Shown here: in pieces, positions 31,782 to 57,146 of the stretch | Position numbering within the stretch: the stretch's first letter is position 1 | Layout of the letters: each line of letters starts with the position of its first letter | Assembly (NCBI GenBank): GCA_963663405.2 | Contig: CAXXSM010000150.1 | Location: 32,001-96,000, forward strand | Origin: a bacterium | GTDB taxonomy: Bacteria; Hinthialibacterota; Hinthialibacteria; Hinthialibacterales; Hinthialibacteraceae | Length of the DNA: 64,000 nt | Direction: 5' to 3' | The notes under the pieces: generated by a model | The model's input: the letters and a program-made list of their open reading frames with translations, nothing else | What the model was told of the DNA's origin: nothing | Databases searched by the model: none | Program-made: the position numbers and the translations under genes

Positions 31782-34700
31782 TCAATTTTTTGAAAGCAAC
31801 AGTTTTAAAACATTATTACTCTCATTAATCTCTTTCACTTCATCACCCGGATCAACATCAATCCGAAAAAACTGCCCTAAAAGTTCTTCCGGGATTTCAA
31901 TCTCAGCAGCAATCGATTTTGGGATTAAATCAAGTGGCGCTTTTAAATCCTTCATCTCGATCGTTTTTTCCCAACCGTTTTGAGTCGCAATCCGGATTGA
32001 GAATTCCGGTACGTTTTCGGTTCCTATGTTATGAACCGTCAATTTGAGATTCTGAGGAGAAGTTCTTTCGATATCTTGCAAACCAATAGCCAGATCAGGA
32101 AGAAATTCCGGAGCAGGAGAAGAATCAATCTGCCGGACCGAAAGGATTGTCAATTGATGGGGAGGCAATGTCAATTGAAGCGGAATCCCTCTTTCTGTCA
32201 CCCTCAGTTTTCGTAAAAAGAAAGGGGAACTGGCCGGATTTTTAAGCGAGACTTCATAGGTTCCATTCTCCAAACGCCAGAAGCGCGCTCCCACCTCCGC
32301 TGGAGAGTCCGAAAACACATACAACTGCGCTTCCAGTTTTTTTGTATCAGACGCAGTCACAAAGGCCTCCGCTTCATCCCCCACCCCGTTCCATGTGACA
32401 GCGTGAACAGGATAGTAAGTAGGATTCCCAAACGATCCAGTCAACATAGAGGTTAATACCGCGTTCCCTGGAATGGAGACACGGTCCGTGAAGAGAACCT
32501 CAGTCGTGATCATTGGAAGATTGTGACTCAATCCGCTGATGATCCCCTCCAATTCATGTTCTAATTTCAAAGAATCTCCCGTCAACCGATAGCGCATGGC
32601 GCCGGACGCCCGTTTGAGAAGCAGATCGTCATAGCGATCGTCTCCCGAAAGAACGCGCCATTTTTCCAGCACATCATAAAAAGCGTCCGTATCGTGAAGT
32701 TTCCCCACCCATTCGAGACTGCCTTCTTTTGGATTCTCCTGTCCGGATCGCTGATACACCCGGATCGCATCCAGCGCGGCTAAGATCGGTTCAAGGATTT
32801 CATCATTTCCTGTTTCCGCCCAAGCGGCGAGCATGATGTGATAGAGTGTGCGCGTATAGGATATGGCCGTGAAATCGTTATACCCTTTCGTCTGCCACCA
32901 ATGATCCGCATAACCGCCGATCCGCCCATCGGGAAAGGAGACGGAACCGGGAAGGATTCCCACCGGCTTGCCCCGGTCCTCGCTACGCCCCGCATTCACC
33001 CAGGCCATCGACCAGTTTGAAAGAAGATCGCGCACAACAGGATGACCACTGTACCACATCACCCAAGCGCCGGGTTTCGCGGCGCGTCCGTTCAGGGGCG
33101 TATCGGCCGACCGGGGAATGGTGTCAACCGTCTCTGAAGCGGAGAAGTAATGAGACTTGAAATGCAGGTCACCGTTATCATTGAGAGCGGTCCAGACAGT
33201 TTTCATACACCGCATAGTTTCGAGACAGGTTTCAAAATATTTCGGATCACCATAATGAGCGGCCATCATGAGGGGTTGTGTATCCGAAACCGGTTCAGCG
33301 GCGTGTTCGACATCCCCGATTTCTTTGCTATACCCATGCTCCACCACCCCCGACGCGAGAACGCCATCCGCGATCCGCTGGGCGCCAAGACGCGTAATCG
33401 GATCATTTACGGCAAGAACGAGGGGAATCCAGCTGCGCAGAATTTCAACGTCATCCCCCCAGCCACCACCGAGCTCTCCATTTTCACTTTGTCTGCGTTT
33501 TACCCAATAATAAATCACCTCTCGCAGCCTGCCCAGCGCTTCCCGCTGGAGAACCGCCCATCGGGGAGCGGTTTCCGGGGCGGTTTGCTCTCCATACACA
33601 TGGCGGATCGATTCACCAAGATACATGCGCGGAAGTTCATGGCCGGGATAGAGTTCACACAAGGCGCGTGCGTGTTTCTTTCCCAAGTCATAACAATGTT
33701 TCCAGCCCCCTTCGCGTCCATTCCAATACGAGACGCGCATCTGAATCAAAAGCGCAAGCGAGTAAAGGGGATCGGTCACTGGCACAGAATTACATAATTC
33801 ATAAGCGGACCAGTACCGGTGATAGCAGTTTAAATCCGTCTCCTCACGCGCCCATTGAAAATTCCACATCCGCAGCGTTTCCAGCGCCAAGAGAACGCGT
33901 TCGTCCACTTCGAGACGCTCCCGGACAGCGGGGGATGGGGATTTTATTCCACACAACTTTTGAATAGAAGATTTCAACAAGTGGATACGCATCTCATCAG
34001 ATGTATCGATATGGCTTGCGATAGTATCCGCCATTAGAATCCAATCGAGTTCATTTTCATCCTGGGGATATTCGTCCAGCAGATCAAGAGCCCGATTCAC
34101 ATTGTTATCATTCAGGGCGTCGAGGATATTCTGAAACGATTCATTTGGTGTTTGGACGATCAGTTTAGGGCCTTGCCGTTTGATCGACCATTGAGGAGCC
34201 GTGCGCAGATGAACTCCCAATATAGAACTTTTATTCTCCCCCAAATACCAGAGACGCCCATCCTCTGGTTCTCTCGTTGTATATTCCTTCCACGAATCCG
34301 GACGGGATGGGGCGTAATCAACTTCAATAAGAATAATTCCATCTTTGGGAGCCACCGGGACTTTTACACTTTTAACAGGAGTCCCCCCCTGCGACCCCCA
34401 AACCTTTCCCCAGGCGTCAACATTCTCCGCCACAAGCGTTCCATTGATCCGCACACGCAGATCGTGCCGGCGTTTCTGATAACGGCCTACAAAAACCGTC
34501 ACGAGATATTCGCCGGAAGGAACATCAACGCGAAATCGGATAGGCCCATCATCTTCAAATCCATCTCGATAGAGAGCCTTCCCCGGTTCCACGAGATGAA
34601 GCGGATAATGCGCGTCCCCCTTCTCCGACAGTCCGGATTCATCATCAAAACCCGTTTTTGGAACCGATACCCAGCCGTAACCCGTTGTTTTTGAATAGAT

Positions 34701-34859
34701 TGTATTTTCCGTTACCGGAAGAGAGCCCAACGCGGCGGGAGAACCATCCGGCCCCATATCAAACAGAATTTCAACATCTTCAGCCAAGGCCGCCGGGATC
34801 ACAGCGAAAATCAAAATGAAGGTCAAAATAGTACTTTTTTTATACGTATGGAATCTCAT
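31782..34859 (-). CDS. Large secreted protein: galactose-binding-like N-domain, helical core, C-terminal CARDB domain
   Basis: Signal peptide after GGAGG RBS (ATG 34859); FDMG..GYGW..FRVDVPSGEY; PDLAI...VDPGDEVKEINESNN. Confidence 0.7.
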   Translation of the reverse strand: MRFHTYKKSTILTFILIFAVIPAALAEDVEILFDMGPDGSPAALGSLPVTENTIYSKTTGYGWVSVPKTGFDDESGLSEKGDAHYPLHLVEPGKALYRDGFEDDGPIRFRVDVPSGEYLVTVFVGRYQKRRHDLRVRINGTLVAENVDAWGKVWGSQGGTPVKSVKVPVAPKDGIILIEVDYAPSRPDSWKEYTTREPEDGRLWYLGENKSSILGVHLRTAPQWSIKRQGPKLIVQTPNESFQNILDALNDNNVNRALDLLDEYPQDENELDWILMADTIASHIDTSDEMRIHLLKSSIQKLCGIKSPSPAVRERLEVDERVLLALETLRMWNFQWAREETDLNCYHRYWSAYELCNSVPVTDPLYSLALLIQMRVSYWNGREGGWKHCYDLGKKHARALCELYPGHELPRMYLGESIRHVYGEQTAPETAPRWAVLQREALGRLREVIYYWVKRRQSENGELGGGWGDDVEILRSWIPLVLAVNDPITRLGAQRIADGVLASGVVEHGYSKEIGDVEHAAEPVSDTQPLMMAAHYGDPKYFETCLETMRCMKTVWTALNDNGDLHFKSHYFSASETVDTIPRSADTPLNGRAAKPGAWVMWYSGHPVVRDLLSNWSMAWVNAGRSEDRGKPVGILPGSVSFPDGRIGGYADHWWQTKGYNDFTAISYTRTLYHIMLAAWAETGNDEILEPILAALDAIRVYQRSGQENPKEGSLEWVGKLHDTDAFYDVLEKWRVLSGDDRYDDLLLKRASGAMRYRLTGDSLKLEHELEGIISGLSHNLPMITTEVLFTDRVSIPGNAVLTSMLTGSFGNPTYYPVHAVTWNGVGDEAEAFVTASDTKKLEAQLYVFSDSPAEVGARFWRLENGTYEVSLKNPASSPFFLRKLRVTERGIPLQLTLPPHQLTILSVRQIDSSPAPEFLPDLAIGLQDIERTSPQNLKLTVHNIGTENVPEFSIRIATQNGWEKTIEMKDLKAPLDLIPKSIAAEIEIPEELLGQFFRIDVDPGDEVKEINESNNVLKLLLSKN

Positions 34860-35209
34860 TCGATACACCTCCGTAGGTGGATTATACACGCAACACCACA
34901 CCCGTATATCTCTTCTGATGTCTCCATCTCCTCCCTATCAAGTCCATTGTGCTTGATTGTGATACACTTACACCGACCAACAGCGAAAAGACAACTAGAC
35001 GCAAAAACAAATTATCCACAAAAAATATTGATGTTTACAGATGCTTCATATATAGTAAATAACAGATATCTATCTTTCCGGGACCTTCTACCCCCAGATC
35101 CAACAATAAATGAAGATTGGGGGAACCTGCGCAAACCAACCTTTGGCTATATCACCGGATCGTCACACAATATGGAAAAGATATTGTCTTAATTCGCAAG
35201 GGGGGAATC

Positions 35210-36214
35210 ATGAAATTCACAAACATTCTCAAATCCATAATTCTATCGATCCTGTTCACATATAGTTCCATAAATATATGTGCGCAGAATATCAACACAC
35301 CTGAAAACTTTCCCGGCCGGCTGTTTCGCGGTGCCATTGAAAAAATCATTGGCGTCGAACCCGGCGGATCATTCACCGCCGGACAGGCGGCGGAAGTCAC
35401 ACGAATCGATATTCCTTCTCTCTTTGATGAGACTGGATCTGTGACGGATTTAACTGGGCTGCAGTTTTTCCCTGCATTACGAAATTTCAACTGCTCGTCC
35501 AATCAAATCACGAGTATCGATCTCTCTCATAACACGGCGTTGGAAGTTCTACGCTGCAGTGGGAATCCATTAACGAATTTGGATCTCTCCCACAACACAG
35601 CGTTAAAACGTCTTAACTGCAATGCGTGTCAATTAACCAATTTGGACGTCTCCCACAATACAGCATTAGATACTCTCCACTGTAAAATAAATCATTTATC
35701 CAGCCTGGATGTTTCTAACAATGTCGCATTGGAGCGGTTTGACTGCAGTGAAAATCAATTAATCCATTTGAATGTAACTGGAGCCACTCCGTTGAGATTC
35801 CTCTTATGCTCCGAAAATCAATTATCCAGTTTGGATCTCTCTCAGAATACAGCCTTAAAAAGTCTGACGTGCGATACAAATCACTTAACCGTTTTGGATC
35901 TTTCGAACAATACGATCATGGCTGGAGTCTGGTGTTCATACAATCGGCTGACAAACATTGTAATCTCTGAAAGTGGCGCAATATCATTTTTAGACTGTTC
36001 GAACAATCATCTAACCAGCCTTTCCAGTTTCGTCTCCAATCCAAGTCTTGGACAAGATGACACGTTGATTGTCACAAATAACTACATTGGCTGCGCCGAT
36101 CCAAACACTGCTCTCCATGATATCGAAGTTCTTAAAGAACGAATGGGAACCGGTTTTCGCTACGATCCCCAAAAAGAATGTGAAACCGGCGTAGAGGATT
36201 GGTCATTGCATTGA
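35210..36214 (+). CDS. Secreted single-module LRR protein (9 IRREKO-type 21-aa repeats)
   Basis: Signal peptide, NINTPENFP N-cap, LxxLxCxxNxLxxLDxSxN repeats, NNYIGC C-cap; ends ETGVEDWSLH. Confidence 0.9.
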   Translation: MKFTNILKSIILSILFTYSSINICAQNINTPENFPGRLFRGAIEKIIGVEPGGSFTAGQAAEVTRIDIPSLFDETGSVTDLTGLQFFPALRNFNCSSNQITSIDLSHNTALEVLRCSGNPLTNLDLSHNTALKRLNCNACQLTNLDVSHNTALDTLHCKINHLSSLDVSNNVALERFDCSENQLIHLNVTGATPLRFLLCSENQLSSLDLSQNTALKSLTCDTNHLTVLDLSNNTIMAGVWCSYNRLTNIVISESGAISFLDCSNNHLTSLSSFVSNPSLGQDDTLIVTNNYIGCADPNTALHDIEVLKERMGTGFRYDPQKECETGVEDWSLH

Positions 36215-36497
36215 AAATAATAATTTCCTTTTTAGAAAAGAATTGTAAATAAACTGATAACAGAGGGAAATCATGTATCTCACAAGCATCTCTAAATTCA
36301 CCGTCTCAGTCTTGTTTATTACAAGCCTATCGATCCCCACCTGGGCGCAGAATATCAACACACGGGAAAACTTTCCTGATCCAGAATTCCGCGCAGCTGT
36401 TGAAACGTTCATGAACGTCTCCGCGGGAGGTGAGTTTACCGCCGTGGAGGCGTCTTCGAAAACTAAAACGATGAAATGTTCTGGACAATATAAAAAA

Positions 36498-38480
36498 GCC
36501 TCTTCGCTATTTCATGTGGGTAGAGGGTAGAACCTCGAGAAGATTACATTCCAATTTTCCTCTGCCAAACAGATGGTTACGATCAACTTGTAGACGTTTC
36601 GATATCTGTTAAGCGACAAGTATTTTGCAGTAGGATTGCCCTCCATCGATCCGTTTGCGGGTCTGGATTTTATCGAAGAAAAAAGAACCATATCTTTATG
36701 TGCCGCATGCTTGTGGAGTCTGTGGTCAGGCGCCTCAATAATCTTTCTCATTCCCCCTAATCTTTCGCAGGTGGCTGTCCAAATCTTGTGGGCAAACCGG
36801 CAGGAACTTTCTCTTCTCACCCAGAGTATCGGCGGTTTGTCCATAAGATGGCAGAATCCACAAGCCCTCACTCGTTCGGATTACTGATCATGAATCGCAG
36901 ACCGGAGAGACTCAGCCGGTTTCATCCGGTGTCTTTTGCTTAGTTTGGCGGCTTGCCTGCAGAAACGGGAACGATTCAAGCCGTATTACTATTTCGTGTG
37001 GGGCGAGGGAAGAACCTTGGGAAGATTGAATTCCAACTTGCTTCCAATCAAATAGATGGTAGTGATTAAATTGTTGACGTTGCGATAGCCTCTCGCACGG
37101 GCCTTGGCGGCTTGGATCAGGCTATTCATCCCCTCCAACAGACCATTGTTGATTCGCGAAGTAAACCAACGCACCACACCAGCCCAGTGCTCCTTGATCG
37201 TTTTCGCGGCCTTGATCATAGGCTCAATCCGGCTGTGAGTCGCCCAATAATACCACTTTTTAAGAAACGATTCCCCCTCCTCCGGATCGTCGAACGAAAA
37301 CACGTCTTGGAACACGGATCGCAGATGGTAGGCTTTCACCGTCTTCAATTTGCTCCCTCGTACATCTTGAAAAATTTCGTTCCGTTTCTTCTCTTGCTTG
37401 TCCGTGAGATTCCATTCATTCTTCAGCCAAATATACTTCGTCCCCTTCAATAATTCGGGATAAATCGCTTGGTCTTGTTTGCGCACTTCGTCCACAGCTT
37501 GATTGATAATCCTCATCAGGTGGTATTCATCAAATGTCATTTCGGCGGCCGGGAAATTGGCTTCAATCCCGGATTGAAACGCCTGGGACATATCCAAACA
37601 AAATTCCTCCACCTGCTCCGCCTTTCCGTTATGCGTCTCTAAATCCTCTTTGAACGCCCCCACCGTTTGAGCGTCCTTTCCATCGGTGGCAAACATCACG
37701 CTGCGCTCGTCCAAATCCATGAATACGCTGACATAATTGTGCCCTTTGGCCTTTGAGGTCTCATCCACCCCCACCGCCTTCACTCCCGAAAAATCCTCCC
37801 TCTCTCGCGCGTCCATCACATAATGAGTCAGCACTCGCCAAATCAGCGTGTCATATTCTCCGACCACTCGGCTGATCGCATTGGCCGTCATCCCATTCTC
37901 CGCCAGTGCCATGACCAACGCTTCAAATAACAACGTAAATCCCGCCCCCGGACGGGCCCAGGGAAGATTCACTGTCTTGACTTTATGATTGGGACATTTC
38001 ACACGAGGTTGCCGGGCGTGTAAATACGTCTCATACTGAAAGAAATTCAGATGCCTCCAAGTGCGTCGTTTCGTATCATGCACTCCACACAGGTTCCCGC
38101 ATTCGGGACAGGGAAACAGACTCCCCTCGGGAAAGTCCAGCGTGAGGTGCAAGGTTTTTTCTTCCTCAGGAAACTCGGCCTGGACGACCTGCCATGGCTC
38201 ACTCAAACCTAACGCTAACCGGAATAATTCTTGGTTCTTCATTCTCTTCCTTCTCTCTCTCTCTCTCTCTTGGGATTGGGATCTTTGCCTTTAGCCTGGG
38301 CGGAGGATCGGACCTTGCGGGGACGCGAACTGAGTGCTGACCAAGAAGACTGTCGAAGGACGGTCTAGCACCGCCCTTCTTGTTAGTTTATCTCGTCGGG
38401 ATTGGTACGTAAGCGATATATCTTCGGGAGGATGGAGGAAAGCCTTCCCCAAATCTACCCACTCGATTCAGCGAAGAGCC
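36498..38480 (-). mobile_element. ISL3-family insertion sequence, 1983 bp
   Basis: Imperfect terminal IRs GCCTCTTCGCTATTTCATGTGGGTAGA / GGCTCTTCGCTGAATCGAGTGGGTAGA; 8-bp TSD ATAAAAAA at 36490-36497 and 38481-38488. Confidence 0.93.
36989..38242 (-). CDS. ISL3-family transposase
   Basis: CPECG zinc finger, WRHL, GVDE, DMS, FDxYH and NNGLLEGMNSLIQAAKARARGYRN. Confidence 0.95.
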   Translation of the reverse strand: MKNQELFRLALGLSEPWQVVQAEFPEEEKTLHLTLDFPEGSLFPCPECGNLCGVHDTKRRTWRHLNFFQYETYLHARQPRVKCPNHKVKTVNLPWARPGAGFTLLFEALVMALAENGMTANAISRVVGEYDTLIWRVLTHYVMDAREREDFSGVKAVGVDETSKAKGHNYVSVFMDLDERSVMFATDGKDAQTVGAFKEDLETHNGKAEQVEEFCLDMSQAFQSGIEANFPAAEMTFDEYHLMRIINQAVDEVRKQDQAIYPELLKGTKYIWLKNEWNLTDKQEKKRNEIFQDVRGSKLKTVKAYHLRSVFQDVFSFDDPEEGESFLKKWYYWATHSRIEPMIKAAKTIKEHWAGVVRWFTSRINNGLLEGMNSLIQAAKARARGYRNVNNLITTIYLIGSKLEFNLPKVLPSPHTK

Positions 38481-41400
38481 ATAAAAAACAGAAAATCAAA
38501 GAGACAACAGGATTGCATTTCTTCCCAAATATCACATCGCTCGATTGCTCGTGGAATCAGTTAAAAAAACTGGATCTCTCCCACAATACGGCGTTGCACT
38601 CACTCAAGTGTAACTGCAATCAATTGATCGAACTGAATCTCTCTCACAATACAGATCTAGAGGAACTTGACAGTTCGGGCAATACTTTAAAAAACCTGGA
38701 TGTCTCCAACCTTACCAAATTATCCTCACTCACTTGCAGTAACAATCAAATCACCGTTCTGGATGTTTCTCAAAACACAGCCTTGAAACGGCTCTACTGC
38801 TGGGGAAATCAATTGACCCACCTGGACGTCACCCACAACACCGCGTTGGAATCGCTCTACTGTTTGAGCAATCAATTGACCAGCCTGGATGTCTCCAACG
38901 CCATCGAGCTGCAATCTCTCGACTGTCGGGAAAACCTATTGACAAGCCTTTCCACGCTCACCGCCAATGAAGGACTTAGTCAAGGAGACTATGTCAACGT
39001 GCAAAATAACTATATCGGATGCGCCGATCCAGACACCACCGCGGCTGACATCCAAATTCTACTCGCGCGAATCGGCCAATACGATAAAAACAGCCGGCCA
39101 CGCACAGGCTTCATTTTCGCGCCACAGAAAGCATGCGCAACAGAGACCCCGGATTCACAGAATATAAATACACCAATCTTTTTCCCCGATCCAAATTTCC
39201 GCGAGGCGGTCGAGGAATTCATGGATGTGGAACATAATAGAACATTCACGGCGGCGGAAGCCTCAATTAAAGATGGAACGCTGGATTGTTTGTTACTTGA
39301 CATAAAAGATACAACCGGTCTAGAGTTTTTTCATGCTTTAACCGGGCTTAATTGCGCAGCCAACCAATTGACGCGCCTGGATGTTTCTAATAATACAGCA
39401 CTAACCGGCTTGATTTGCACTCAAAATCAATTAACAAGCCTCGATGTTAGTAACAATCCCAAGTTGGGACTGCTCCTTTGCTATGAAAACGAATTAACAA
39501 GTTTGGATGTCACTCACAATCCCATGTTGGAATCACTTCGCTGTGATTTTAATCAACTCACCAGTCTAGATGTTTCTAATAATCTTGTATTGACCACCCT
39601 CTGGTGCAGAGGCAATCAAATAGCGGATCTAGATGTCACTAACAACACTGCATTGTACTCTTTCTACTGCAGTGGAAATGAATTGACCAGCCTTTCAAGT
39701 TTTGTCGCCAACGAAGGGCTTGACGCCGGAGATTTTGTTAATGTCAGAGACAATTATATTGGCTGCATAGACCCTGACGCAGCCGCAAGAGATATAGAAA
39801 TATTAAAAGAACGTATTGGACAATTGTTTTTTTACGAATCCCAAAAAGACTGCGCAACCGCTCCCCCGGATTTACGGAACATCAACACATCGGAAAACTT
39901 CCCCGATCCAAACTTCCGCGCGGCGGTCGAAGAATTCATGGGTGTAGAATCCGGCGGTGGATTTACAGCGGCGGACGCTTCGATCAAAGAAGGAACACTG
40001 GATTGTTCCAACCGTGGAATCGAAGACTTGACCGGTATCAAACTCTTCCCACAATTAACTGGACTTATCTGCAAAGCCAATCAACTGCGAGACCTAGATC
40101 TTTCCTACAACATCGCTTTAGAGTATCTCAACTGCTCCGCGAATCAACTCACCAGTTTGGATCTTTCCAATAACACGATGTTGAAGCGCTTCGATTGCAG
40201 CGCCAATCAACTCACCAATCTAGATATTCACAACAATACTGCCTTGGAATGGTTGGATTGCCATCAAAACCAATTAAACAGCCTCTCTAGTTTTACCGCC
40301 AACGAAGGACTTGGAACGGGCGACTATGTCAACGTACAAAACAATAGCATTGGTTGCGTGTACCCAGAGTCCACTGAGGCAAATATACAAATTTTAAAAG
40401 AACGCATTGGTGAATCATTTTTCTATGAATCACAGAATGTGTGTGAAACGGATCCAAATAAAATACTAAACATTAATACTCCAGAAAACTTTCCCGATCC
40501 AAATTTCCGCGCGGCTGTCGAAGACTTCATGGGTGTGGGATCCGGTGGAGAATTTACAGCGGCGGACGCCTCGATCAAAGAAGGAACACTGGATTGCGAG
40601 AATCGCGGCATTCAAGACATGACGGGTTTAGAACGTTTCCCTGCTATTCCCGGACTCGTTTGTGGAAGGAATTCTATTTCCAACCTTGATGTCTCTTATA
40701 ATACCTCTTTAACTATTCTGATATGTGATTCACTTGATAATCTGACAAATATCGATCTCTCGCAGAACACCGCATTAGAGTCTCTCAACTGCGGTTTCAA
40801 TGATTTAACCAGCCTTGACGTTTCACATAATACCGCTTTGGTCAATCTTGAATGCTATTATAATCAAATATCCAGTCTGGATGTCTCGCGCAACGCCACA
40901 TTGGAATCTCTCGTTTGTTATAACAACAAATTAACCAGCCTGGATGTTTCTAACAATCCCGGTTTGCATGAACTCGGTTGTGATCATAATCGATTATCCA
41001 GCCTTGATGTCACACACAACACCGTACTGACTAAACTCACTTGTGGAGACAATGAAATACCAGATTTAGATATCTCCAAGAATCCTATGTTAGAATATCT
41101 CTCCTGCTCGTATAACCGGCTGACCAGTCTTTCCAGTTTTGTCGAAAACGAAGGTCTTGGCCCAAAAGATTGGGTAACTGTAAGCAACAATTACATCGGT
41201 TGCATTGATCCAGAAACCGCACAGCAACACATTCAAATTCTCAAAGAACGAATCGGAGAAAGATTTTCATACGAACCGCAGAAAGACTGTAACACAATGG
41301 ACTTAGATTCTTTCAATATCAACACTCCGGAGAACTTCCCCGATCCAAAATTCCGAATAATCGTAGAGACTTTTATGGGTGTGAATCACGAAGGGGAATT

Positions 41401-43407
41401 CACAGCGGAGGAAGCCGCTAGTAAAGATGGTAAACTGGATTTTTCTCTTCGTGGTATCTATGATATAACCGGAATTGAATATTTCACTGGACTGACAAGA
41501 CTCGATTGCGGCGACAATCCATTGACTCGTTTGGATATCTCAAACAATACTGCTTTGATTCATCTAAGATGCGCCAGGACTCAATTAATCAACCTGGATG
41601 TCTCCAACAATCTTGCTCTAGAGTCACTCTATTGCGATGGCAATCAATTAACCAGCCTGGACATCTCCAACAACACCGCTTTGACTACTCTTTTATGCAA
41701 CAGTAATCTATTAACTACTCTGGATATCTCCAATAATCCGGCCTTAGAGACTCTCCATTGTGATGACAATCAATTAACAATTCTGGACATTTCAAAGAAT
41801 TCCGCGGTAAAAACTCTCTACTGCGGTGATAATGCATTGACAGTCATTGATCTCTCAAACAATCCCGCGTTGGTGTATCTTCACTGTGAAGACAGCCAGT
41901 TAACCGCCTTGGATCTCTCGAACAATCCCGAGTTGGAATCTCTCTACTGCGCTGGCAATCTATTATCCAGCCTGGATACCTCCAGCAATCCAGCGTTGAT
42001 GTATCTACACTGTAACCGCAATCAAATATCCAAACTGGATGTATCTCAGAACACCGCGTTGGTATCTCTTAACTGTTATTGGAATCGATTAACCAACGTT
42101 TCCAGTTTCACCACTAACGAAGGCCTTGGAACAGAAGATTTTGTCGATATTCGAAACAACTATATTGGTTGCGTGGATCCAAACGTATCGAATAATGATA
42201 TGCAAATTCTTATCGATAGAATTGGAGACAGTTTTAAATATGAACCACAATTCGATTGCAACACAGCAGAACCTGACTTAGCGAATATCAACACGCCGGA
42301 TAACTTTCCCGATCCGAATTTTCGAAGCGTGGTAGAGGACATTATTGACGTACAACATGGTGAGCCATTTACTGCGGCACAGGCGGCTCAAGTAAAAAGT
42401 ATGGAAATTGCCAGTAGTGAATATTATAGGCTTAATATCAATGATTTTTCTGGAATTCACTTTTTCACTGGCTTGGAGTATCTCAACTGCGCAAATAATA
42501 ACTTAACTAGCCTGGATCTCTCATCTAACACTGCTTTAGTAATACTTCACTGCGTTTCGAATCAATTAACCAGTTTGGATCTTTCTCACAACACCGCGCT
42601 AAAGTCACTCGACTGCGATCACAATCAGCAATTAACCAATCTGGATATCTCTCAGAACACGGCTTTGGAATTCCTTGATTGCGATATGAACTTATTGACT
42701 AGTCTTGATCTTTCTCAAAATACTGCTTTGAAACATCTCCAATGTGAGTTCAATCAATTAAAAAACTTAAATCTTACGAATAATACTGCTTTACAATATA
42801 TCAAATGCGGGGGCAATCAATTAACTAGCCTGGACGTCTCTAACACAACTGCTCTAGAGCACCTTTCTTGCAGCAACAATCAATTGACAACTTTGAATGT
42901 TTCCAATTGTCCTGGTTTAATTGAACTATGGTGCCAAAGTAATCTATTAACCAGCCTGGATATCACTAAGAATCCTGCTTTAATTGAACTCGCGTGCAGG
43001 TACAATCAATTGACAAGCTTGAATGTCTCTCACAATATCGCTTTATCTGAATTCTCTTGCTCGAACAATCAATTAATCAATTTGGATATTTCTCAAAACA
43101 CTGCGCTAGTTAGGCTCTACTGCGCTTGGAATCAATTAACCAATCTTGATGTTTCCAATAACACCGCATTGGAATATATTAACTGTTCAGACAATCAATT
43201 GACAAGCCTTTCCAGTTTTGTCGCCAACGAAGGTCTTGGATCAGGAGACGCAGTGGAAGTGTACAACAATTACATTGGTTGCATAGATCCAGACGCAGCC
43301 ACAAGAGATATAGAAATTCTTAAAGAGCGAATAGGAAGAAGATTTTATTATGAATTCCAGAAGGATTGTGAAACGATGCCAACGAATTAATTTCCCATCA
43401 AGAAGAA

Positions 43408-43440
43408 AGAACCGCATAAAAAATGCGCGGTTTCTAGTTT
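43408..43440. terminator. Possible terminator between the convergent LRR and lptD genes
   Basis: Imperfect hairpin AACCGC...GCGGTT with A-rich left and T-rich right flanks. Confidence 0.35.
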
Positions 43441-43453
43441 TATAAAACGTCAA

Positions 43454-45862
43454 TTACCGAAACACATTAACCGGCTGATTCCGCATCCCCTTTTTGTTCC
43501 CGAATCCTGTAAAACTGAAGCCGATGTTTATGGATAGATCGTCATCCAGGGTTGGGTGATCGCGGTAGACGATGTGGAATGTGGTGAAGAAATCGTACAT
43601 GTCGCGGGATACACCGAGGGTGGTGCGGCGGATCTTCTCATCATCCAGATCGAACCAGATGCCGGAAAAAACCTGCCATTTATTGGAGACGTCGTACAAC
43701 ATCTGAATCGCCGCATCCTCTTGTTCGTCCCGTTCGGTCAGTGGATTCAGGTTGGGGAATAGATACGTATTGTATCCCATCGTGAAATGCAGGCGGGAAA
43801 GCGGGCTGATCTGCGCGTAATAGTACGAAGAACGAACCTCGCTGTCGTCCACATCGTATCGCAAAGTATTCCCTACAGAGAACCACGGAAACGGGTAAAT
43901 ATCAAATTCTTCGATCCAGTCGGAATAGCGGTAATCAGTATGGTTGGCGAAATCATCCGAGAACTCAAAATTATCGTACAACAGATTATCGTCCGGCATA
44001 TAGTCATACGCGAGACCCGTCGTAAACCGGAAAAAATCACTCGAAACGCCACCCTGGTCTTTCCCTTGGATGCGCGTCCGCAACAGCGCCGATACGCGGT
44101 GCATCTGATACCGCACCTCATCCGTAGGATCGATATACGGAAATCGGATATCCCGCGCGCCGGGGATCACTGAATTCATGACTTCTTCTTCCAGCGCGTT
44201 GTCCGGATGGTAGTACTCATAGCCAAACACAGGCTCCACGACGATACGCATCCGATCGTACCGGTCTAAAAACGGCTCAAATTCAGCCGTCGAGCGGTTT
44301 GAGATTTCCAGCCCCCCCTGGGGCATGGAGCGGGTGACCGAATCAAAGTTGTATGTGTTTTGCCGGTCATCCAAAGTACGCTCAGGATCGCTGTATTCCG
44401 TGCCCCGATACCCCACCCAGGGTTTAAACGTCCAGCGGGCGGGTAAAAGAATCGGGTAGGCGAACTTCAGATTCGCATCGTACCGGTCAACCTCATCGAT
44501 AAAGAGCGTATTCTGGATAATCTGATCCTGAATCCCATTCTTGATGGGAATCGTGTATCCTTCTTCCCGGCGATAGCGTCCGAAATCCAGCTGCAGGTTT
44601 GTGTATACATTCGAATCGAAAAGATTGGTCGGATAATGTTCAAAATGAACCTGCGGACGCCGTTCCACATAGGGCAGCCCGTTGTAGTAAAACGAATCGA
44701 ACCGCTGCGCGGCGGTCAGGCGCATGCTCTGATCGTCCCAACGTTTCACCAAATCGATATGCGAGACGGAATCACGCTGGATCGCGTCCGGATCACTTTC
44801 CCGCACCCGTTCGGGGCCGTGATAATCCCACAGATATTCCGAATCGGATAGTTTATGCGCCCGGCCGGATATACGCATATCGTAGGGCAGATCCTGCGCG
44901 TATTCACCAGATACAATGTATCGGTCTTCATCTTCATAAATGTTATCGTTGTCCGCCCCATCCTGCGCGATATGCCACCCATAGATCTCCCCTTTCGGGC
45001 TGTACTCTCCCCCCTTCACATCGAACTGAAATTTTCCGCCGGCGCCGACTCCTACATCCGTAAAATAGTCTCCATAGAAATCAAATTCATATTCACCCGG
45101 TTCACCCGGCACGATATTCAACCGGTTGAACGCCGCGTACCCAAGGCGGGAATAATGGGCGAAATCGAAATAGTACGCGACTTTGCTCTGTCCCAAGGAT
45201 TGTGTAAAAAATGGAAGATAAAACATCGGGTACGATTGGACGTTCATAACAATGTTATTCGCCCAAAACCGGACATTCGGAACTACCACGACTTTATCAA
45301 AACCGAAGTAATACGTAGGAACCGGCCAATCAGAACCGGTCAATTGTCCTTTCCGGACCGTATATTCAGGAATCATTTCCGCTTCGGTGGCGCCGGCGGG
45401 TCGCTTAGCGGGACGCCGTTTGTACGTAACCGAATCTCCTTTGAAGAAAACGCCCTCCGCGAGTTCGGCTTCCTTTACCTCTTCGAGTATCCCTTGGTTC
45501 TTTTCGATGTAAAAGACTAGATGTTCGCCCCGCAAAATCGATCCCTGATCCCACAACCGGACATCGCCGGAAGCGTGAATTGTCTGTTCGATCTGGTTAT
45601 AAATAATTGTGTCAGCGGTGATAGATCGATCCCCAATGATGACGGATGGGCGTTCTTCTCCTTTAGGACGAAGCATAATCGTTTCTGTGGGGATATCGTA
45701 TTCATAATCCCCACGCAGGATTTCAAAAGGAGTGGAACTCTTTTCCTGGGAAAAGCCGTTCCCCACGATACCAAAAAAGAGAAGGGATAGAAAACAGATA
45801 ACCTTGATATTCATAACGTAGACGAAACGGAAATTAACCGGATATTTCATAGTCAACCCCAT
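43454..45862 (-). CDS. lptD: LPS-assembly protein LptD-like outer-membrane beta-barrel
   Basis: N-terminal OstA-like region (ITADTIIY..ASGDV.L), P.FYLPF, long amphipathic beta-strand region. Confidence 0.75.
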   Translation of the reverse strand: MGLTMKYPVNFRFVYVMNIKVICFLSLLFFGIVGNGFSQEKSSTPFEILRGDYEYDIPTETIMLRPKGEERPSVIIGDRSITADTIIYNQIEQTIHASGDVRLWDQGSILRGEHLVFYIEKNQGILEEVKEAELAEGVFFKGDSVTYKRRPAKRPAGATEAEMIPEYTVRKGQLTGSDWPVPTYYFGFDKVVVVPNVRFWANNIVMNVQSYPMFYLPFFTQSLGQSKVAYYFDFAHYSRLGYAAFNRLNIVPGEPGEYEFDFYGDYFTDVGVGAGGKFQFDVKGGEYSPKGEIYGWHIAQDGADNDNIYEDEDRYIVSGEYAQDLPYDMRISGRAHKLSDSEYLWDYHGPERVRESDPDAIQRDSVSHIDLVKRWDDQSMRLTAAQRFDSFYYNGLPYVERRPQVHFEHYPTNLFDSNVYTNLQLDFGRYRREEGYTIPIKNGIQDQIIQNTLFIDEVDRYDANLKFAYPILLPARWTFKPWVGYRGTEYSDPERTLDDRQNTYNFDSVTRSMPQGGLEISNRSTAEFEPFLDRYDRMRIVVEPVFGYEYYHPDNALEEEVMNSVIPGARDIRFPYIDPTDEVRYQMHRVSALLRTRIQGKDQGGVSSDFFRFTTGLAYDYMPDDNLLYDNFEFSDDFANHTDYRYSDWIEEFDIYPFPWFSVGNTLRYDVDDSEVRSSYYYAQISPLSRLHFTMGYNTYLFPNLNPLTERDEQEDAAIQMLYDVSNKWQVFSGIWFDLDDEKIRRTTLGVSRDMYDFFTTFHIVYRDHPTLDDDLSINIGFSFTGFGNKKGMRNQPVNVFR

Positions 45863-46015
45863 GTTTAAACATATAAACCATCATGATCGAGATCCCAACG
45901 TGCAAATGAAAATGAGTTGTGGGAGCAATCACTAATGAGAAAACATTAGAAACTCATTTTCATATGAATCCACATTTTATGTCAAATTAATAGCGGCGCC
46001 TATGTGATGAGTCCA

Positions 46016-46486
46016 TTATTTCTGATTTTTTGGTCCAGCGGCGAACCGTTCCAACACCCATTCAGGAATCCGGCACGGAGCGACTCGTCCATTGTTCTCT
46101 TTGCAACAAGCCATTTTCGTCACTCCACTCGCGATGCGTAATGGCTGGTTCTCATCATCCCGGCGGTTTTCACATAGAATCTCATAGTAAAAAGTCAAAT
46201 ACGATCGGCCCTTCTCCGGAATCCAAGTTTTGATCTGCAACGCATCCCCCAGCCGCGCGGGAGAGAGATAATCCAATTCGGCCCGGCGGCAGACAAAAAG
46301 GCAATTCTTTTCAAGCATATCCACTAGAGTAAGATCGAATTCTTCCACATAGAATCCTCGCGCCCGTTCAAACATTTCGAGATAACGCGCATAATAAACC
46401 ACACCTCCCGCGTCGGTGTCACCATAACAAACTCGGTAAGGATACGCGCAAACAGGAAAATCGATGTCTTCAATCCGGACGCTCAT
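46016..46486 (-). CDS. Acyl-CoA thioesterase, YbgC/FadM hotdog family
   Basis: RV.YGDTDAGGVVYYARYLEMFERAR and Y.SPARLGD. Confidence 0.9.
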   Translation of the reverse strand: MSVRIEDIDFPVCAYPYRVCYGDTDAGGVVYYARYLEMFERARGFYVEEFDLTLVDMLEKNCLFVCRRAELDYLSPARLGDALQIKTWIPEKGRSYLTFYYEILCENRRDDENQPLRIASGVTKMACCKENNGRVAPCRIPEWVLERFAAGPKNQK

Positions 46487-46505
46487 AAAATGCCCTTCTC
46501 AATTG

Positions 46506-48347
46506 ATGGCTTTATTGCAGGCCGGGATTCTAATCCGCTGCCTATTCCTTCCTTTAATCGGTTTTGAACAGGACTTTCACTTCTTCGCCTCCTGGGCGAC
46601 CCATCTTGCAGAGAATAGCGTCATAACGATTTACGACAAGCCGGAAGAACTGAGCGTGGGATTCATCAATTACCCGCCCTTCTACCTCTACATCCTATCC
46701 GGCCTCGCCCGCACATACCGGTGGTTTTTTACCGGCCCTTTGGAGACACGCGTCTTTCTCTGCATGATAAAATCCGTCACAATCCTTTTCGAAATATTGA
46801 CCGCGTTTCTCCTTTACCGCTTTCTTCTGCGCAAGACGGATGAACGAACCGCACTATACGGATTCGGTTTCTATTTTCTTAATCCAGCCATTTTCTACGT
46901 CAGCGTCTATTATGGCCAAGTAGACGCGATATTCAGCGCCTTTCTCTTATTAACCACTATTTCTCTGATCGATGAAAAGTACTTTTGGGGCGGATTTTGG
47001 GCCGCTTGCTCGTTGTTGATGAAAATACAATCGATCCCATTCATGCCCCTCTTTTTCTTCTGGCCGATCGCGCGGGGACAATACAAGAAGATTATTCCAT
47101 TCGTTTGTGGATTCGCGATCGCCTCCTTTGTGATTCTAGCGCCGTTTCTGTTCAGCGGACGGCTGGAGAAAGTGTATCATTATAGCGTCGAAGCGAGTGT
47201 AGAATGGGGAAAATACCTATCTGTCGGAGCCTTCAATCTTTGGTATCTACACGCCGATCCATACACACTCGATAAGCGGATTTGGGGATGGCTTTTCGGA
47301 GCCGATGGGATACTAACCGCCTATCCGTTCATACACTATTTAACATACAGAAACCTAGGCGTAGGGCTATTCGGCATCGCGTTTCTCGGGATGCTGACCG
47401 CGGTATGGAAGCGTCCAGATCGAGAGGGACTCTTGAAAGCCGCCGCATTTATCGCGTTGGCGTTTTATATGCTTCCGACGAAAGTCCACGAGCGCTATTT
47501 ATTCCCCTTCTTCGTTTTCTATGCGCCCCTGGCTTTGACCTGCCTGACGAGGCGGTTCCTGTTCATCGGATTCAGCGCCTCTTATTTACTGAATCTCATA
47601 GTAATTTGCCCCCTCATTGGCGAAGTACATTACGTTGAAGAGATCGATTCTACCCTCGGAGCCGCCGCAGCCGCTTGGAATGTGGTTTTATTCACGGCGT
47701 TTATCGTGTATGAATATGTAATCCCATTTCGATCTCAGGAAAAATCATTCCCCTTGCTCGCGAAAACAATCGGATTGTCGATCGCCTGCGTCTCGATCGT
47801 TCTATATCTCCGGGCCGATGCGAGAACCGATGATCCATATACCCTCTATCTCAGCCGGATAACGCCTATTTCGTGTATACAAGATTGGCCGCCAATTCCA
47901 CCGGAATTAAGCGATCCACCCCCGGATTATCAACTTCGCATGGATCTATCCACGGACGAGAATCAATTACGGATCGGCGATCATCTCTACCGGTATGGGA
48001 TCGGCGCGCACGCCAATTCACGCATCGAATACGACATTCCCCGGTATTACACCATTTTCGAAACTTGGGTGGGAGTAGATTACGAAACAATGGAGAATTT
48101 CAAACTGTACCCGGACCGGGCGACTGTTTCCTTTGAAGTCTGGGTGAATGGAGTCAAACTGGCGGAAACACCCTTAATGATCCCCACATCACCTCCTAGG
48201 AAAATCTCAGTGCGTCTTCCCCGGAGCCAAGAAACCAACCGGTTGACGTTAATTGTGAGAAATGGAGAAGATGGTTCCGCATCTGATCATGCGGACTGGG
48301 CGCTGGCGCGAGTAATACGAACTTTTCTACCCCCGGCGGAGAGATGA
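46506..48347 (+). CDS. Multi-TM GT-C-type glycosyltransferase with a C-terminal NPCBM/NEW2 domain (start uncertain)
   Basis: NYPP, NPA..Y.S..YGQVD, K.Q and HERY; C-terminal GIGAHA.S.IEY...VGVD...DHADW. Confidence 0.75.
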   Translation: MALLQAGILIRCLFLPLIGFEQDFHFFASWATHLAENSVITIYDKPEELSVGFINYPPFYLYILSGLARTYRWFFTGPLETRVFLCMIKSVTILFEILTAFLLYRFLLRKTDERTALYGFGFYFLNPAIFYVSVYYGQVDAIFSAFLLLTTISLIDEKYFWGGFWAACSLLMKIQSIPFMPLFFFWPIARGQYKKIIPFVCGFAIASFVILAPFLFSGRLEKVYHYSVEASVEWGKYLSVGAFNLWYLHADPYTLDKRIWGWLFGADGILTAYPFIHYLTYRNLGVGLFGIAFLGMLTAVWKRPDREGLLKAAAFIALAFYMLPTKVHERYLFPFFVFYAPLALTCLTRRFLFIGFSASYLLNLIVICPLIGEVHYVEEIDSTLGAAAAAWNVVLFTAFIVYEYVIPFRSQEKSFPLLAKTIGLSIACVSIVLYLRADARTDDPYTLYLSRITPISCIQDWPPIPPELSDPPPDYQLRMDLSTDENQLRIGDHLYRYGIGAHANSRIEYDIPRYYTIFETWVGVDYETMENFKLYPDRATVSFEVWVNGVKLAETPLMIPTSPPRKISVRLPRSQETNRLTLIVRNGEDGSASDHADWALARVIRTFLPPAER

Positions 48348-48526
48348 TCAATAACTGATAATACAGCGCTTTCTGATTCATTGCCACGAATCCAACGTCG
48401 ATCCAGCGGAGATGATTTCTTTTTCCGTGCAAGCCGGAATCAAGGAATTGATTCGCTTAAAATAAAACATTCAGAGGTTAGTTAGCGGGAAACGCTGTTC
48501 CTATCAATTCAAAATCGACCTTTTTC

Positions 48527-49270
48527 TCAATGCAAGGACCAATTCGATACTGCCGTTTCACATTCATTCTGTGGTTCGTATATAAACCCGAAGAATCCTA
48601 GGGGAACAGCTTTTCCTAATCGCTCTGTAAGAATTTGAAAATCACTCATCGCGGCATTTGGATCAACACAACCAATGAAATTGTTTCGAACATCAACATA
48701 GTCTCCTTGTCCAAGACCTTCGTTGGCTACAAAACTTGAAAGGCTGGTTAATTGATTTGCTTGACACAAAATACGCACTAAAGCGGGATTCTTGGAGACA
48801 TCTAAGCTGGTTAATTGATTTTCACTGCAAACGAGATTTTCCAAAGCGGGATTGTTAGAGATATCTAAACTAGTTAAAGAATTGGCATTGCAGGCGAGTA
48901 TAGTTAAAGCGGGATTGTTGGAGGCATCTAGGCTGGTTAATTGATTGATACCACAAAAGAGTACAGTTAAAGCAGTGTTTTTGGAGACATCCAGATTGGT
49001 TAATTGATTGCCTTCGCAGTAGAGTTCTGTTAAAGCGGGGAAAAGTGCAATCCCGGTCATCTTTCCGATACCGCGCCTAGAACAATCCAATGTTCCATCT
49101 TTTATCGCTGCTTCAGCCGCCGTGAATTCCCCCCCTGGCTCCACGCCCATAAATTCCGCAACCGCCGCTCGGAAGTTCGGATCAGGAAAGTTCTCCGGTG
49201 TGTTGATATTCTGGGAAAATGTGTTTGAGGAAATAAAAACGATGATGAATGCAGAGATGAAGTATTTCAT
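48527..49270 (-). CDS. Secreted single-module LRR protein (5 repeats)
   Basis: Signal peptide and the same N-cap and C-cap as the 35-43 kb genes; ends ETAVSNWSLH. Confidence 0.9.
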   Translation of the reverse strand: MKYFISAFIIVFISSNTFSQNINTPENFPDPNFRAAVAEFMGVEPGGEFTAAEAAIKDGTLDCSRRGIGKMTGIALFPALTELYCEGNQLTNLDVSKNTALTVLFCGINQLTSLDASNNPALTILACNANSLTSLDISNNPALENLVCSENQLTSLDVSKNPALVRILCQANQLTSLSSFVANEGLGQGDYVDVRNNFIGCVDPNAAMSDFQILTERLGKAVPLGFFGFIYEPQNECETAVSNWSLH

Positions 49271-56958: not shown

Positions 56959-57146
56959 ATATGAAAATGAATTTCAGAGACTGGCTCATTCAAGGTTTCT
57001 ACCGCAACTCATTTTCATTTGCAATTGTGATCTCAATCATGATGGTTTATATGAATAACGCTGGTCCAATTGAATCAAAAAGCGATCGGCGTATACTTCT
57101 AGCATTCCCGAATCGGCGCGGTCACTCTTACGCAGGAACGTTTATT

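What the first reader, a model, noticed from the sequence alone, without database searches (positions are those of the whole stretch)
35210..49270. VLR-like repertoire of capped, variable-length LRR modules
Seen: eight copies of one module in three genes. Each has a conserved N-cap (NINTPENFPDPNFRAAVE.FMGV..GGEFTA), a run of 21-aa repeats (L..L.C..NQL..LD.S.NTA) and a conserved C-cap (LSSFVANEGLG.GD.V.V.NNYIGC.DP...I.ILKERIG..F.YE.QK.C). My repeat counts are 9; 7,6,4,8,10,12; and 5. The scaffold is near constant while the residues flanking LxC and the two after Cys differ in almost every repeat (CSW, CWG, CYE, CDF, CYY, CAW...). Known: these positions line the concave ligand-binding face; the repeat class is IRREKO/internalin-J-like. 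Inference: a secreted, recombination-diversified binder library, architecturally like lamprey VLRs, with monovalent and hexavalent formats.
Basis: partly seen in the sequence, partly recalled or inferred. Interest (0 to 1): 0.72.

Follow-up and report, generated by a model that had tools for sequence, protein, structure and literature searches.

The report
Expanded family of capped LRR binders
An uncultured bacterium carries about fifty genes for exported internalin-J-like leucine-rich-repeat binding modules whose binding faces differ in every copy and between near-identical strains, but they are ordinary inherited genes, not an antibody-like assembly system.

Summary
Eight modules lie in three genes, each with an N-cap, 21-residue Cys-ladder repeats and a C-cap. 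Repeat counts are 9; 7, 6, 4, 8, 10, 12; 5.

New points:
- The six-module gene is split by a 1,983-bp ISL3 element. Its signal peptide and first N-cap lie upstream, at 36273-36497.
- The family has 49 ORFs genome-wide.
- N-cap plus repeats match internalin J (3bz5, E 5e-60).
- The C-cap matches no Pfam family and is rare (143 of 1.84 billion representatives).

Repeat positions 2, 3, 5, 7 and 8 are hypervariable. In recently duplicated units they change at least as fast as synonymous sites. In one young gene pair they are frozen.

A sibling strain has a neighbouring gene 98% identical, but its LRR proteins at or near these loci are only 48-54% identical and have other repeat counts.

I found no partial cassettes, no long identical tracts and no nearby reverse transcriptase.

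Verdict: a germline, birth-and-death binder family with strain-level allele turnover. It is VLR-like only in domain layout. The scan noted similar InlJ-class LRR arrays before, in giant phages.

The parts
35210..36214 (+). G1: single-module gene. Signal peptide, N-cap, 9 Cys-ladder LRRs, C-cap, and a C-terminal tail ending ...VEDWSLH.
   Evidence: ORF and translation; repeat parse; cap HMM hits; Pfam LRR_4; NCBIfam internalin_J local hit.
36273..36497 (+). 5' fragment of G2: start codon, signal peptide and first N-cap (NINTRENFPDPEF...), cut off by the IS insertion.
   Evidence: Sequence and translation; N-cap HMM hit on ORF C150_68261_68527; same codon phase as the 3' part across the 8-bp target duplication (read).
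36498..38480 (-). ISL3-family insertion sequence, 1,983 bp. Transposase at 36989-38242 (minus strand). Terminal inverted repeats at 36500-36524 and 38454-38478. 8-bp target duplication ATAAAAAA at 36490-36497 and 38481-38488.
   Evidence: Pfam DDE_Tnp_ISL3, HTH_Tnp_ISL3 and Zn_ribbon_ISL3; inverted repeat; 14 full-length copies in the genome, 7 of them 100% identical; a separate contig of about 11-fold higher depth in an independent assembly of the source sample.
38481..43390 (+). 3' part of G2: the rest of module 1 and modules 2-6, with 7, 6, 4, 8, 10 and 12 repeats. Module starts at 39152, 39869, 40460, 41306 and 42275. Ends ...CETMPTN, without the tryptophan tail. The listed ORF (38402-43390) begins inside the IS.
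   Evidence: six C-cap and five N-cap HMM hits; Pfam LRR_4 and LRR_EndoS.
48527..49270 (-). G3: single-module gene. Signal peptide, N-cap, 5 LRRs, C-cap, and a tail ending ...VSNWSLH.
   Evidence: AlphaFold2 model with mean pLDDT 93.1; InlJ 3bz5 E 5e-60; VIA-align Z 24 to the InlB LRR domain.

Best explanation
These are germline genes of a lineage-specific, expanded family of exported internalin-J-class (IRREKO, Cys-ladder) LRR binding modules.

Each module is a self-contained solenoid closed by a helical N-cap and a 65-residue C-cap. Its ligand surface is the concave sheet formed by repeat positions 2, 3, 5, 7 and 8, and it differs in every repeat. The ligands are unknown. By analogy with InlJ they are probably proteins or glycans on other cells or particles (inferred).

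Single modules end in a short tryptophan tail that many exported proteins of this genome share. That tail is probably a sorting or docking tag (inferred). Other members string up to six modules together, or fuse a module to lectin, dockerin, sulfatase-maturase-like or other domains.

Diversity arises by ordinary birth-and-death evolution: duplication of 63-nt units, of modules and of genes; fast amino-acid change on the concave face after duplication; then conservation. Genes are lost through IS insertion and frameshifts. Between strains, whole alleles are replaced. There is no programmed or somatic assembly.
For: Fold and class:
- InlJ 3bz5 E 5e-60 over N-cap plus repeats.
- Model pLDDT 93.
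- Z 24, rmsd 2.1 A over 201 residues to InlB.

Family size:
- 49 ORFs in this genome.
- 128 matches in G000 against at most 68 in each of 30 relatives.

Fusions: Lectin_C plus dockerin, FGE-sulfatase plus dockerin, SnoaL, Laminin_G_3.

C-terminal tail: 20 of 49 family ORFs end in the W-tail, and 135 of 28,595 ORFs genome-wide fit the tail pattern.

Unit duplication: identical or 98% identical neighbouring units in C149, C138 and C55.

Rates after unit duplication: in 51 links between units of at least 85% nt identity, concave codons show dN 0.37. Synonymous divergence is 0.14 in scaffold codons and 0.36 in the concave codons themselves, so omega is 1.0-2.6. Scaffold omega is 0.15 and convex omega 0.47.

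Conservation afterwards: the C47/C99 pair (97.5% nt identity) has 0 changes at 170 non-synonymous concave sites, against 12 non-synonymous changes at convex positions and pS about 0.11.

Decay: the IS in G2 is one of 14 copies, 7 of them identical. Three family members are split across overlapping ORFs in different frames.

Strain turnover:
- P0121, the neighbouring glycosyltransferase-like gene, is 98% identical.
- P0019 is 48% identical, although it shares the text upstream of G1.
- P0005 is 54% identical, with 8 repeats against 5.
- Neither has a match above 64% anywhere in G000.
- A contig of a second study runs from the conserved flank (1.4-2.5% different) into the 3' end of G3 with 65 differences and 17 gaps in 863 nt.

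No machinery: no long identical tracts. RT genes lie only on contigs without family members. The window's other genes that matched a Pfam family are polysaccharide-synthesis and housekeeping genes.
Against: - No ligand, no expression data and no test of export. Signal peptides and the role of the tail are read from sequence only.
- The omega estimate rests on unit pairs picked by similarity and on Nei-Gojobori counts. With the concave codons' own dS it is 1.0, which is neutral as well as positive. Half of the changed concave codons carry 2-3 differences. Simple point mutation at the synonymous rate does not predict that, so short exchanges between units could be hidden in it.
- That P0005, P0019 and P0121 lie on one contig is inferred from the same recorded contig length (31,572). 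For P0019 it is also inferred from the shared upstream text. I could not read that DNA.
- Depth in the source sample is only about 3-fold, so variation within the population could not be seen.
Confidence: 0.75

Rival explanations
1. Population-level cassette exchange. The conserved caps, signal peptides and flanks act as homology arms, and homologous recombination with other strains or paralogues swaps the LRR body of a locus. The family would then be an actively recombining repertoire kept diverse by frequency-dependent selection, for example from phages or changing targets. This adds a mechanism to the best explanation and is compatible with it.
For: At the G1 locus, identity to the sibling allele P0019 falls along the gene. 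It is identical in 25 residues of upstream text, about 76% in the signal peptide, about 66% in the N-cap and about 45% in the repeats (percentages counted by eye from those outputs).

Concave positions of the two alleles agree no better than random unit pairs: 0-3 of 5, against a random rate of 0.10.

Repeat numbers differ: 9 against 10 and 5 against 8.

P0019 runs on past its C-cap into text that looks like a next N-cap read one frame off (my reading of the P0019 sequence), so module and gene boundaries differ between strains.

The cap tree is an unresolved star, with 1 of 13 inner branches supported.

Concave codons have an excess of multi-hit changes.
Against: Within G000 there is no trace of recent exchange. 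Only 2 of 4,462 non-self HSPs reach 90% identity over 60 nt or more, and neither involves the window genes, whose best is 82%. The longest identical runs in the caps are 20 nt or less, with smallest uncorrected p of 0.02 among 28 pairs and 0.028 among 21 pairs. Only one sibling strain was seen, and only as proteins.
Confidence: 0.3
2. VLR-like programmed assembly. An incomplete expressed gene would be completed or rewritten in individual cells by copying from donor LRR cassettes.
For: Only the domain layout fits: N-cap, a variable number of LRRs with variable concave residues, then a C-cap. Repebody and VLR-derived scaffolds appear among the fold matches, at Z 20-22.
Against: All eight modules are complete and lie inside ORFs. 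The one separated N-cap is explained by an IS with a target duplication. I found no partial cassettes and no long identical tracts. The repeats have 21 residues; VLR repeats have 24 (recalled). An independent assembly of the source sample reproduces the three genes without a difference over what it covers. It left 42498-43257 of G2 without a listed piece.
Confidence: 0.03
3. Relaxed constraint only. The modules are spacers or generic sticky surface proteins, the concave residues are simply unconstrained, and the variability has no adaptive meaning.
For: Omega at concave positions is 1.0-1.2 when measured on single-hit codons or against the concave codons' own synonymous changes. Any LRR has variable x positions by definition.
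Against: In the young C47/C99 pair the concave positions show 0 changes at 170 non-synonymous sites. At the pair's synonymous rate about 19 would be expected. Convex positions changed 12 times. That is purifying selection on the concave face. In addition, concave codons differ at 0.29 per site against about 0.12 per synonymous site in the same recently duplicated units.
Confidence: 0.1

Closest known systems
Internalin J of Listeria monocytogenes (PDB 3bz5) and the IRREKO@LRR class, subtype LxxLxCxxNxLxxLDLxx(N/L/x)xx (PMC2946307)
   Same: A 21-residue unit with Cys at position 6 and Asn at 9. The N-cap motif FPDxNF is followed directly by the repeats. phmmer gives E 5e-60 over residues 37-184 of G3, and NCBIfam internalin_J gives local hits. 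InlJ-family proteins act as adhesins: MUC2 for Listeria and Als3 of Candida for the Porphyromonas protein (PMC5915736, passages read).
   Different: No LPXTG anchor and no Ig-like inter-repeat region. Instead there is a 65-residue C-cap with two invariant cysteines that Pfam and NCBIfam do not recognise, and a short tryptophan tail. Up to six capped modules sit in one chain. The organism is a non-pathogenic, uncultured environmental bacterium.
T9SS-sorted LRR proteins of Bacteroidota (LRR_4/LRR_EndoS plus the PF18962 C-terminal domain), including giant multi-LRR proteins
   Same: They share the repeat class and a looser form of the N-cap, at 40-60% identity over the LRR part of G3. Chains of 1,500-2,900 residues with many LRR stretches are common.
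   Different: Their C-terminus is the T9SS sorting domain. In the two I read (P0013, P0016) no C-cap is visible. The NNYIGC-type C-cap is strong only in G000: 22 hits there at E 2e-16 or better, against a best E of 3e-11 in 34 other genomes of the phylum.
Lamprey and hagfish variable lymphocyte receptors (recalled knowledge; repebody structures 3rfs and 4uip are among the fold matches)
   Same: The layout is N-cap, a variable number of LRRs with variable concave residues, then a C-cap. Fold match Z 21-22.
   Different: VLRs are assembled somatically from partial cassettes into an incomplete germline gene. Here every module is complete and inherited, with no cassettes and no identical tracts. 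The repeat class also differs: 21 residues with a Cys ladder here, 24-residue typical LRRs in VLRs.
Slit proteins of animals (four tandem LRR domains, each with its own N- and C-cap; recalled knowledge, not tested)
   Same: Several complete, individually capped LRR domains follow each other in one secreted chain, joined by short linkers (8-10 residues here).
   Different: The caps and repeat class are unrelated, and no homology is implied. The likeness is in architecture only.
InlJ-class LRR gene arrays in giant phages, noted earlier in this scan (e1-5827246, e1-5408099)
   Same: Many small InlJ-like LRR binder genes. By those notes, the binding face evolves fast and copy and repeat numbers differ between near-identical strains.
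   Different: Those arrays are tandem, lie in phages, and are reported to share letter-perfect tracts, which indicates active recombination. Here the genes are scattered over a bacterial chromosome and share no such tracts. I did not re-test those notes.

Membership tests
IRREKO@LRR / InlJ-class LRR | Repeat unit of 21 residues | tested here: met
   59 of 61 units in the window genes are 21 residues long and two are 22. Genome-wide, 368 internal units lie in 21-residue register.
IRREKO@LRR / InlJ-class LRR | Consensus LxxLxCxxNxLxxLDLxx(N/L/x)xx, with Cys at position 6 (the cysteine ladder) | tested here: met
   Frequencies in the window units: L1 0.94, L4 0.88, C6 0.98, N9 0.94, L11 0.88, L14 0.94, D15 0.88, position 16 V/L/I, N19 0.88. 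The consensus is quoted from PMC2946307.
IRREKO@LRR / InlJ-class LRR | Significant sequence similarity to a solved member | tested here: met
   3bz5_A E 5.3e-60, five stretches. Foldseek rank 1, 29% identity.
Listeria internalin family in the strict sense | Helical N-terminal cap in front of the LRRs | tested here: met
   The model has helices at 42-52 and 62-67 before the first strand. VIA alignments begin at model residue 28 against InlB residue 38.
Listeria internalin family in the strict sense | Ig-like inter-repeat domain after the LRRs | tested here: not met
   After the last repeat come only about 65 residues: a strand, a helix at 215-229 and a strand. No Pfam hit lies beyond the LRR.
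Listeria internalin family in the strict sense | LPXTG, GW or similar wall anchor | tested here: not met
   G1 and G3 end in ...WSLH and G2 in ...CETMPTN.
VLR-type assembling receptor | An incomplete expressed gene plus arrays of partial donor cassettes | tested here: not met
   All modules carry both caps inside ORFs. The one split module is due to an IS with a target duplication.
VLR-type assembling receptor | Mosaic copies that share identical tracts with donors | tested here: not met
   The best identity of the window genes to any family member is 82% over 108 nt. The longest identical run in the caps is 20 nt.
VLR-type assembling receptor | AID/APOBEC-type deaminase that drives assembly | not tested
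   I made no search for deaminase families.
Diversity-generating retroelement target | Reverse transcriptase and template repeat near the variable gene | tested here: not met
   PF00078 hits lie only on contigs C77 and C100. Neither contig holds a family ORF (list). I did not search for a template repeat.
T9SS cargo | C-terminal sorting domain PF18962 | tested here: not met
   No such hit in G1-G3 or in the 21 other family ORFs scanned.

The most novel reading that the evidence does not exclude
The capped LRR genes would be a strain-specific, population-level binder repertoire of a candidate phylum. Alleles at fixed loci would be replaced wholesale by recombination anchored in the conserved caps. 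New specificities would be minted by unit duplication followed by positive selection on five concave residues per repeat. The proteins would be delivered through the undescribed tryptophan-tail route. This would be a germline, bacterial counterpart of a variable receptor library, with one-module and six-module formats.
Probability: 0.3. Interest if true: 0.6.

Novelty: new variant of a known kind. Interest (0 to 1): 0.42.

Why it matters
It shows how a free-living, uncultured bacterium with a large genome builds a wide set of binding surfaces from one small scaffold. It also shows that this set turns over between strains that are otherwise nearly identical.

The compact capped module (about 200 residues, predicted with high confidence) and its unrecognised C-cap could be of use as a natural binder scaffold. 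Its link to the tryptophan tail gives that candidate sorting signal a large and uniform set of cargo proteins to test.

It does not reveal a new diversification mechanism.

Tried and rejected
- DNA of the sibling strain:
  - A wobble-degenerate pattern from the neighbouring gene, scanned over JGI metagenome contigs, hit one unrelated high-GC contig (L041) with an NPCBM domain.
  - Two scans of genome contigs found no relatives, one with the C-cap profile and one with the neighbouring protein.
  - The allele comparison therefore rests on proteins.
- Cover in run X3: at 80% likeness no contig lay on G1, and cover of G2 was sparse.
- Within-population variation: depth in the source runs is about 3-fold and they are held as contigs only, so nothing can be said.
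- Cap tree: a tree of 16 cap pairs was an unresolved star. It does not tell whether G2's modules arose by internal duplication.
- Codon 'clock':
  - Leu codons are strongly position-specific in G000 (chi-square 1,061, 15 d.f.), and small samples from relatives do not show this.
  - I first read this as proof that concave codons outran synonymous sites.
  - Third positions, however, imply about 0.9 substitutions per site since the ancestral unit, enough to randomise neutral codons too. The argument does not separate omega = 1 from omega > 1, and I dropped it.
- Pairs chosen on scaffold codons only: concave codons come out almost randomised. But the share of different-ORF pairs at 92% or more (0.47%) equals the normal tail of the background distribution, so chance look-alikes contaminate this set. 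I rely on the whole-unit selection and on same-ORF pairs, and I state the caveat.
- ESM Atlas look-up of the C-cap: only generic LRR clusters, at scores of 0.91 or less.
- Phylum name:
  - Named homologues of the neighbouring gene are labelled Candidatus Omnitrophica or Omnitrophota.
  - The phylum holds only 35 species genomes in the held set.
  - OLB16/Hinthialibacterota was formerly placed in Omnitrophota (PMC9324843, passages read).
  - That this genome belongs there is a guess, not a result.


Full report
**Observation**

The region holds three genes built from one module.
- G1 lies at 35210-36214 on the plus strand.
- G2 is listed as ORF 38402-43390, plus strand, 1,662 aa.
- G3 lies at 48527-49270 on the minus strand.

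Each module has three parts. It starts with NINTPENFPDPNFRAAVE.FMGV..GGEFTA. A run of 21-residue units of the form L..L.C..NQLTSLDVS.NTA follows. It ends with LSSFVANEGLG.GD.V.V.NNYIGC.DP...I.ILKERIG..F.YE.QK.C.

My parse gives 9 repeats for G1, 7, 6, 4, 8, 10 and 12 for G2, and 5 for G3. Over the 49 internal units of these genes, entropy is 3.0-3.8 bits at positions 2, 3, 5, 7 and 8. It is below 1 bit at the Leu/Cys/Asn/Asp scaffold positions and 1.6-2.6 bits at the remaining x positions.

**G2 is a broken gene**

Upstream, at 36273-36497, lies a start codon, a signal peptide and an N-cap (NINTRENFPDPEF...) that stops abruptly. Between it and the rest of G2 sits a 1,983-bp ISL3 element at 36498-38480.
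- The transposase lies at 36989-38242 on the minus strand (Pfam).
- The terminal inverted repeats are 25 nt long.
- The 8-bp target duplication ATAAAAAA lies in the same codon phase on both sides (read).
- The element has 14 full-length copies in the assembly, seven of them 100% identical.
- In an independent assembly of the source sample it forms its own contig at about 11-fold higher depth.

So the insertion is recent. Before it, G2 encoded a signal peptide and six complete modules. The first 26 residues of the listed ORF are IS sequence.

**Family**

Cap HMMs built from the genome's own copies find 58 N-caps in 44 ORFs and 41 C-caps in 30 ORFs, 49 ORFs in all, in the 8.44-Mb, 170-contig assembly. 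Another six-module ORF lies on contig C111. Members fuse modules to Lectin_C plus dockerin, FGE-sulfatase plus dockerin, SnoaL and Laminin_G_3; an ORF that holds only a C-cap carries FG-GAP repeats.

Twenty of the 49 ORFs, G1 and G3 among them, end in a V..W.L[HY]-type tail. This tail is the candidate sorting tag that earlier notes of this scan described on this genome (e1-6630436, e1-6630765). I counted 135 of 28,595 ORFs that fit a tail pattern. G2 lacks the tail.

With G3 as query, 25 of 31 genomes of the same class have matches. G000 has 128, and the next two have 68 and 54. The C-cap profile is strong only in G000. It gives weak hits in 11 of the 34 other genomes of the phylum and finds 143 of 1.84 billion representative proteins, many of them over the LRR-like first third only. 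Pfam and NCBIfam do not recognise the C-cap.

**Class and fold**

G3 matches internalin J (3bz5) at E 5e-60, from the N-cap motif through the repeats. NCBIfam internalin_J gives local hits far below its cut-off. The consensus is the Cys subtype of IRREKO LRRs (PMC2946307, abstract and passages).

The AlphaFold2 model has a mean pLDDT of 93. It aligns with internalin LRR domains at Z 24 (rmsd 2.1 A, 201 residues) and with VLR-derived repebodies at Z 20-22. There is no Ig-like inter-repeat domain and no LPXTG. The proteins therefore work like internalins but are not members of that family in the strict sense.

**Is diversity being generated actively?**

At the DNA level, units and modules of the window genes are 60-82% identical.
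- Of 4,462 non-self HSPs among all family ORFs, only two reach 90% over 60 nt or more. One is a 2.9-kb duplicate gene pair (C47/C99, 97.5%). The other is internal to C149.
- Runs of identity in the caps are 20 nt or less. None is significant after correction. The test covered 7 of the 8 N-caps and all 8 C-caps.
- For window units, the share of identical codons at identical residues is 0.42 in neighbouring units, against 0.36-0.37 elsewhere. These arrays are old.
- The two reverse transcriptase genes lie on contigs without family members.
- The window's other genes that matched a Pfam family are polysaccharide-synthesis and housekeeping genes.

Elsewhere in the genome, fresh unit duplications exist: identical or 98% identical neighbours in C149, C138 and C55.

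**Selection**

I linked units of at least 85% nt identity into 51 minimum-spanning-tree links.
- Concave codons give dN 0.37.
- dS is 0.14 in scaffold codons and 0.36 in the concave codons themselves.
- Scaffold omega is 0.15 and convex omega 0.47.

Single-hit codons give omega 1.09 for the concave class. Total change there is 0.29 per site, against about 0.12 per synonymous site. The concave face therefore changes at least as fast as silent sites after duplication. Whether it changes faster is not settled.

In contrast, the young C47/C99 pair has no change at 170 non-synonymous concave sites, 12 non-synonymous changes at convex positions and pS about 0.11. Established binding faces are therefore conserved.

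**Strains**

The neighbouring 627-aa glycosyltransferase-like/NPCBM protein has a 98% identical homologue, P0121. It is recorded on a 31,572-bp contig.
- P0019 begins with the same 25 residues as the ORF upstream of G1. It then drifts through a related signal peptide into an LRR protein 48% identical to G1, with 10 repeats against 9.
- P0005 has a signal peptide like G3's but is 54% identical, with 8 repeats against 5.
- Neither has a match above 64% anywhere in G000.
- Their concave residues agree with those of G1 and G3 no better than random pairs.

In a run from another study, contigs cover the flanks at 1.4-5% difference. One contig runs from the flank into the 3' end of G3 with 65 differences and 17 gaps in 863 nt. 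The loci turn over between near-identical strains. How they do so remains open: replacement by recombination anchored in the caps is the obvious candidate.

**Conclusion**

This is a germline, birth-and-death family of exported InlJ-class LRR binders, with a distinctive C-cap, tandem capped modules and strain-level allele turnover. The VLR comparison holds for layout only. Similar InlJ-class arrays were noted earlier in this scan in giant phages (e1-5827246, e1-5408099; not re-tested).

I made no search for papers on LRR families in this phylum. The one paper on Hinthialibacterota that I opened (PMC9324843, passages read) does not contain 'leucine-rich' or 'adhesin'. That the genome belongs to that phylum is only a guess.

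Noticed in passing
window 36498-38480, and 13 other contigs of G000: The 1,983-bp ISL3 element has 14 full-length copies, seven of them 100% identical. The element has therefore expanded recently and is probably still active. Earlier notes on this genome also report IS-broken operons.
   Followed up: partly
G000 contigs C27, C55 (two ORFs), C111 (two ORFs), C149: Six family ORFs, the other six-module protein among them, end in a second shared tail, ...Y.E[FL].[DG]LGIV[GE]DC[QS]. It differs from the tryptophan tail and may be a second C-terminal tag or domain end.
   Followed up: no
G000 C47:39514-42408 and C99:35155-38055: Two 2.9-kb genes are 97.5% identical (two LRR modules, dockerin, FGE-sulfatase domain). 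Their amino-acid differences avoid the concave LRR positions and fall on convex positions and the signal peptide. They may be a recent duplicate, or two strains in one bin.
   Followed up: partly
G000 C82:16382-17342, C21:2953-3827, C95:23524-24652: In three family members the N-cap half and the C-cap half lie in overlapping ORFs of different frames. These are frameshifted pseudogenes or assembly errors in repeats.
   Followed up: no
window 56961-57728 and 57697-59925: UvrA domains are split over two overlapping ORFs, which points to a frameshift or a sequencing error in a housekeeping gene.
   Followed up: no
368 LRR units across G000: Leu codons are position-specific within the repeat: position 1 TTR 85%, position 4 CTY 75%, position 11 TTA 62%, position 14 CTG 46% (chi-square 1,061, p about 1e-216). 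Genome-wide Leu usage is even, and small samples from relatives lack the pattern. This fits a lineage-specific expansion from one ancestral unit, or homogenisation.
   Followed up: partly
protein P0019 (sibling strain), C-terminus: After its C-cap the sibling's G1-like protein reads on into text that looks like the next N-cap translated one frame off. In that strain the module appears to be followed directly by another module, not by a stop and a separate gene.
   Followed up: no
window 31122-31766 and 31782-34901: A pilin-like protein with an N-terminal methylation motif lies next to a 1,039-aa exported protein. That protein has only a C-terminal CARDB hit and no other Pfam or NCBIfam match.
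   Followed up: no
G000 C150:28610-29737 (2.3 kb before the window's first base): A further single-module family gene (376 aa, 10 repeats, W-tail) lies just outside the window, so the local cluster holds four genes.
   Followed up: no
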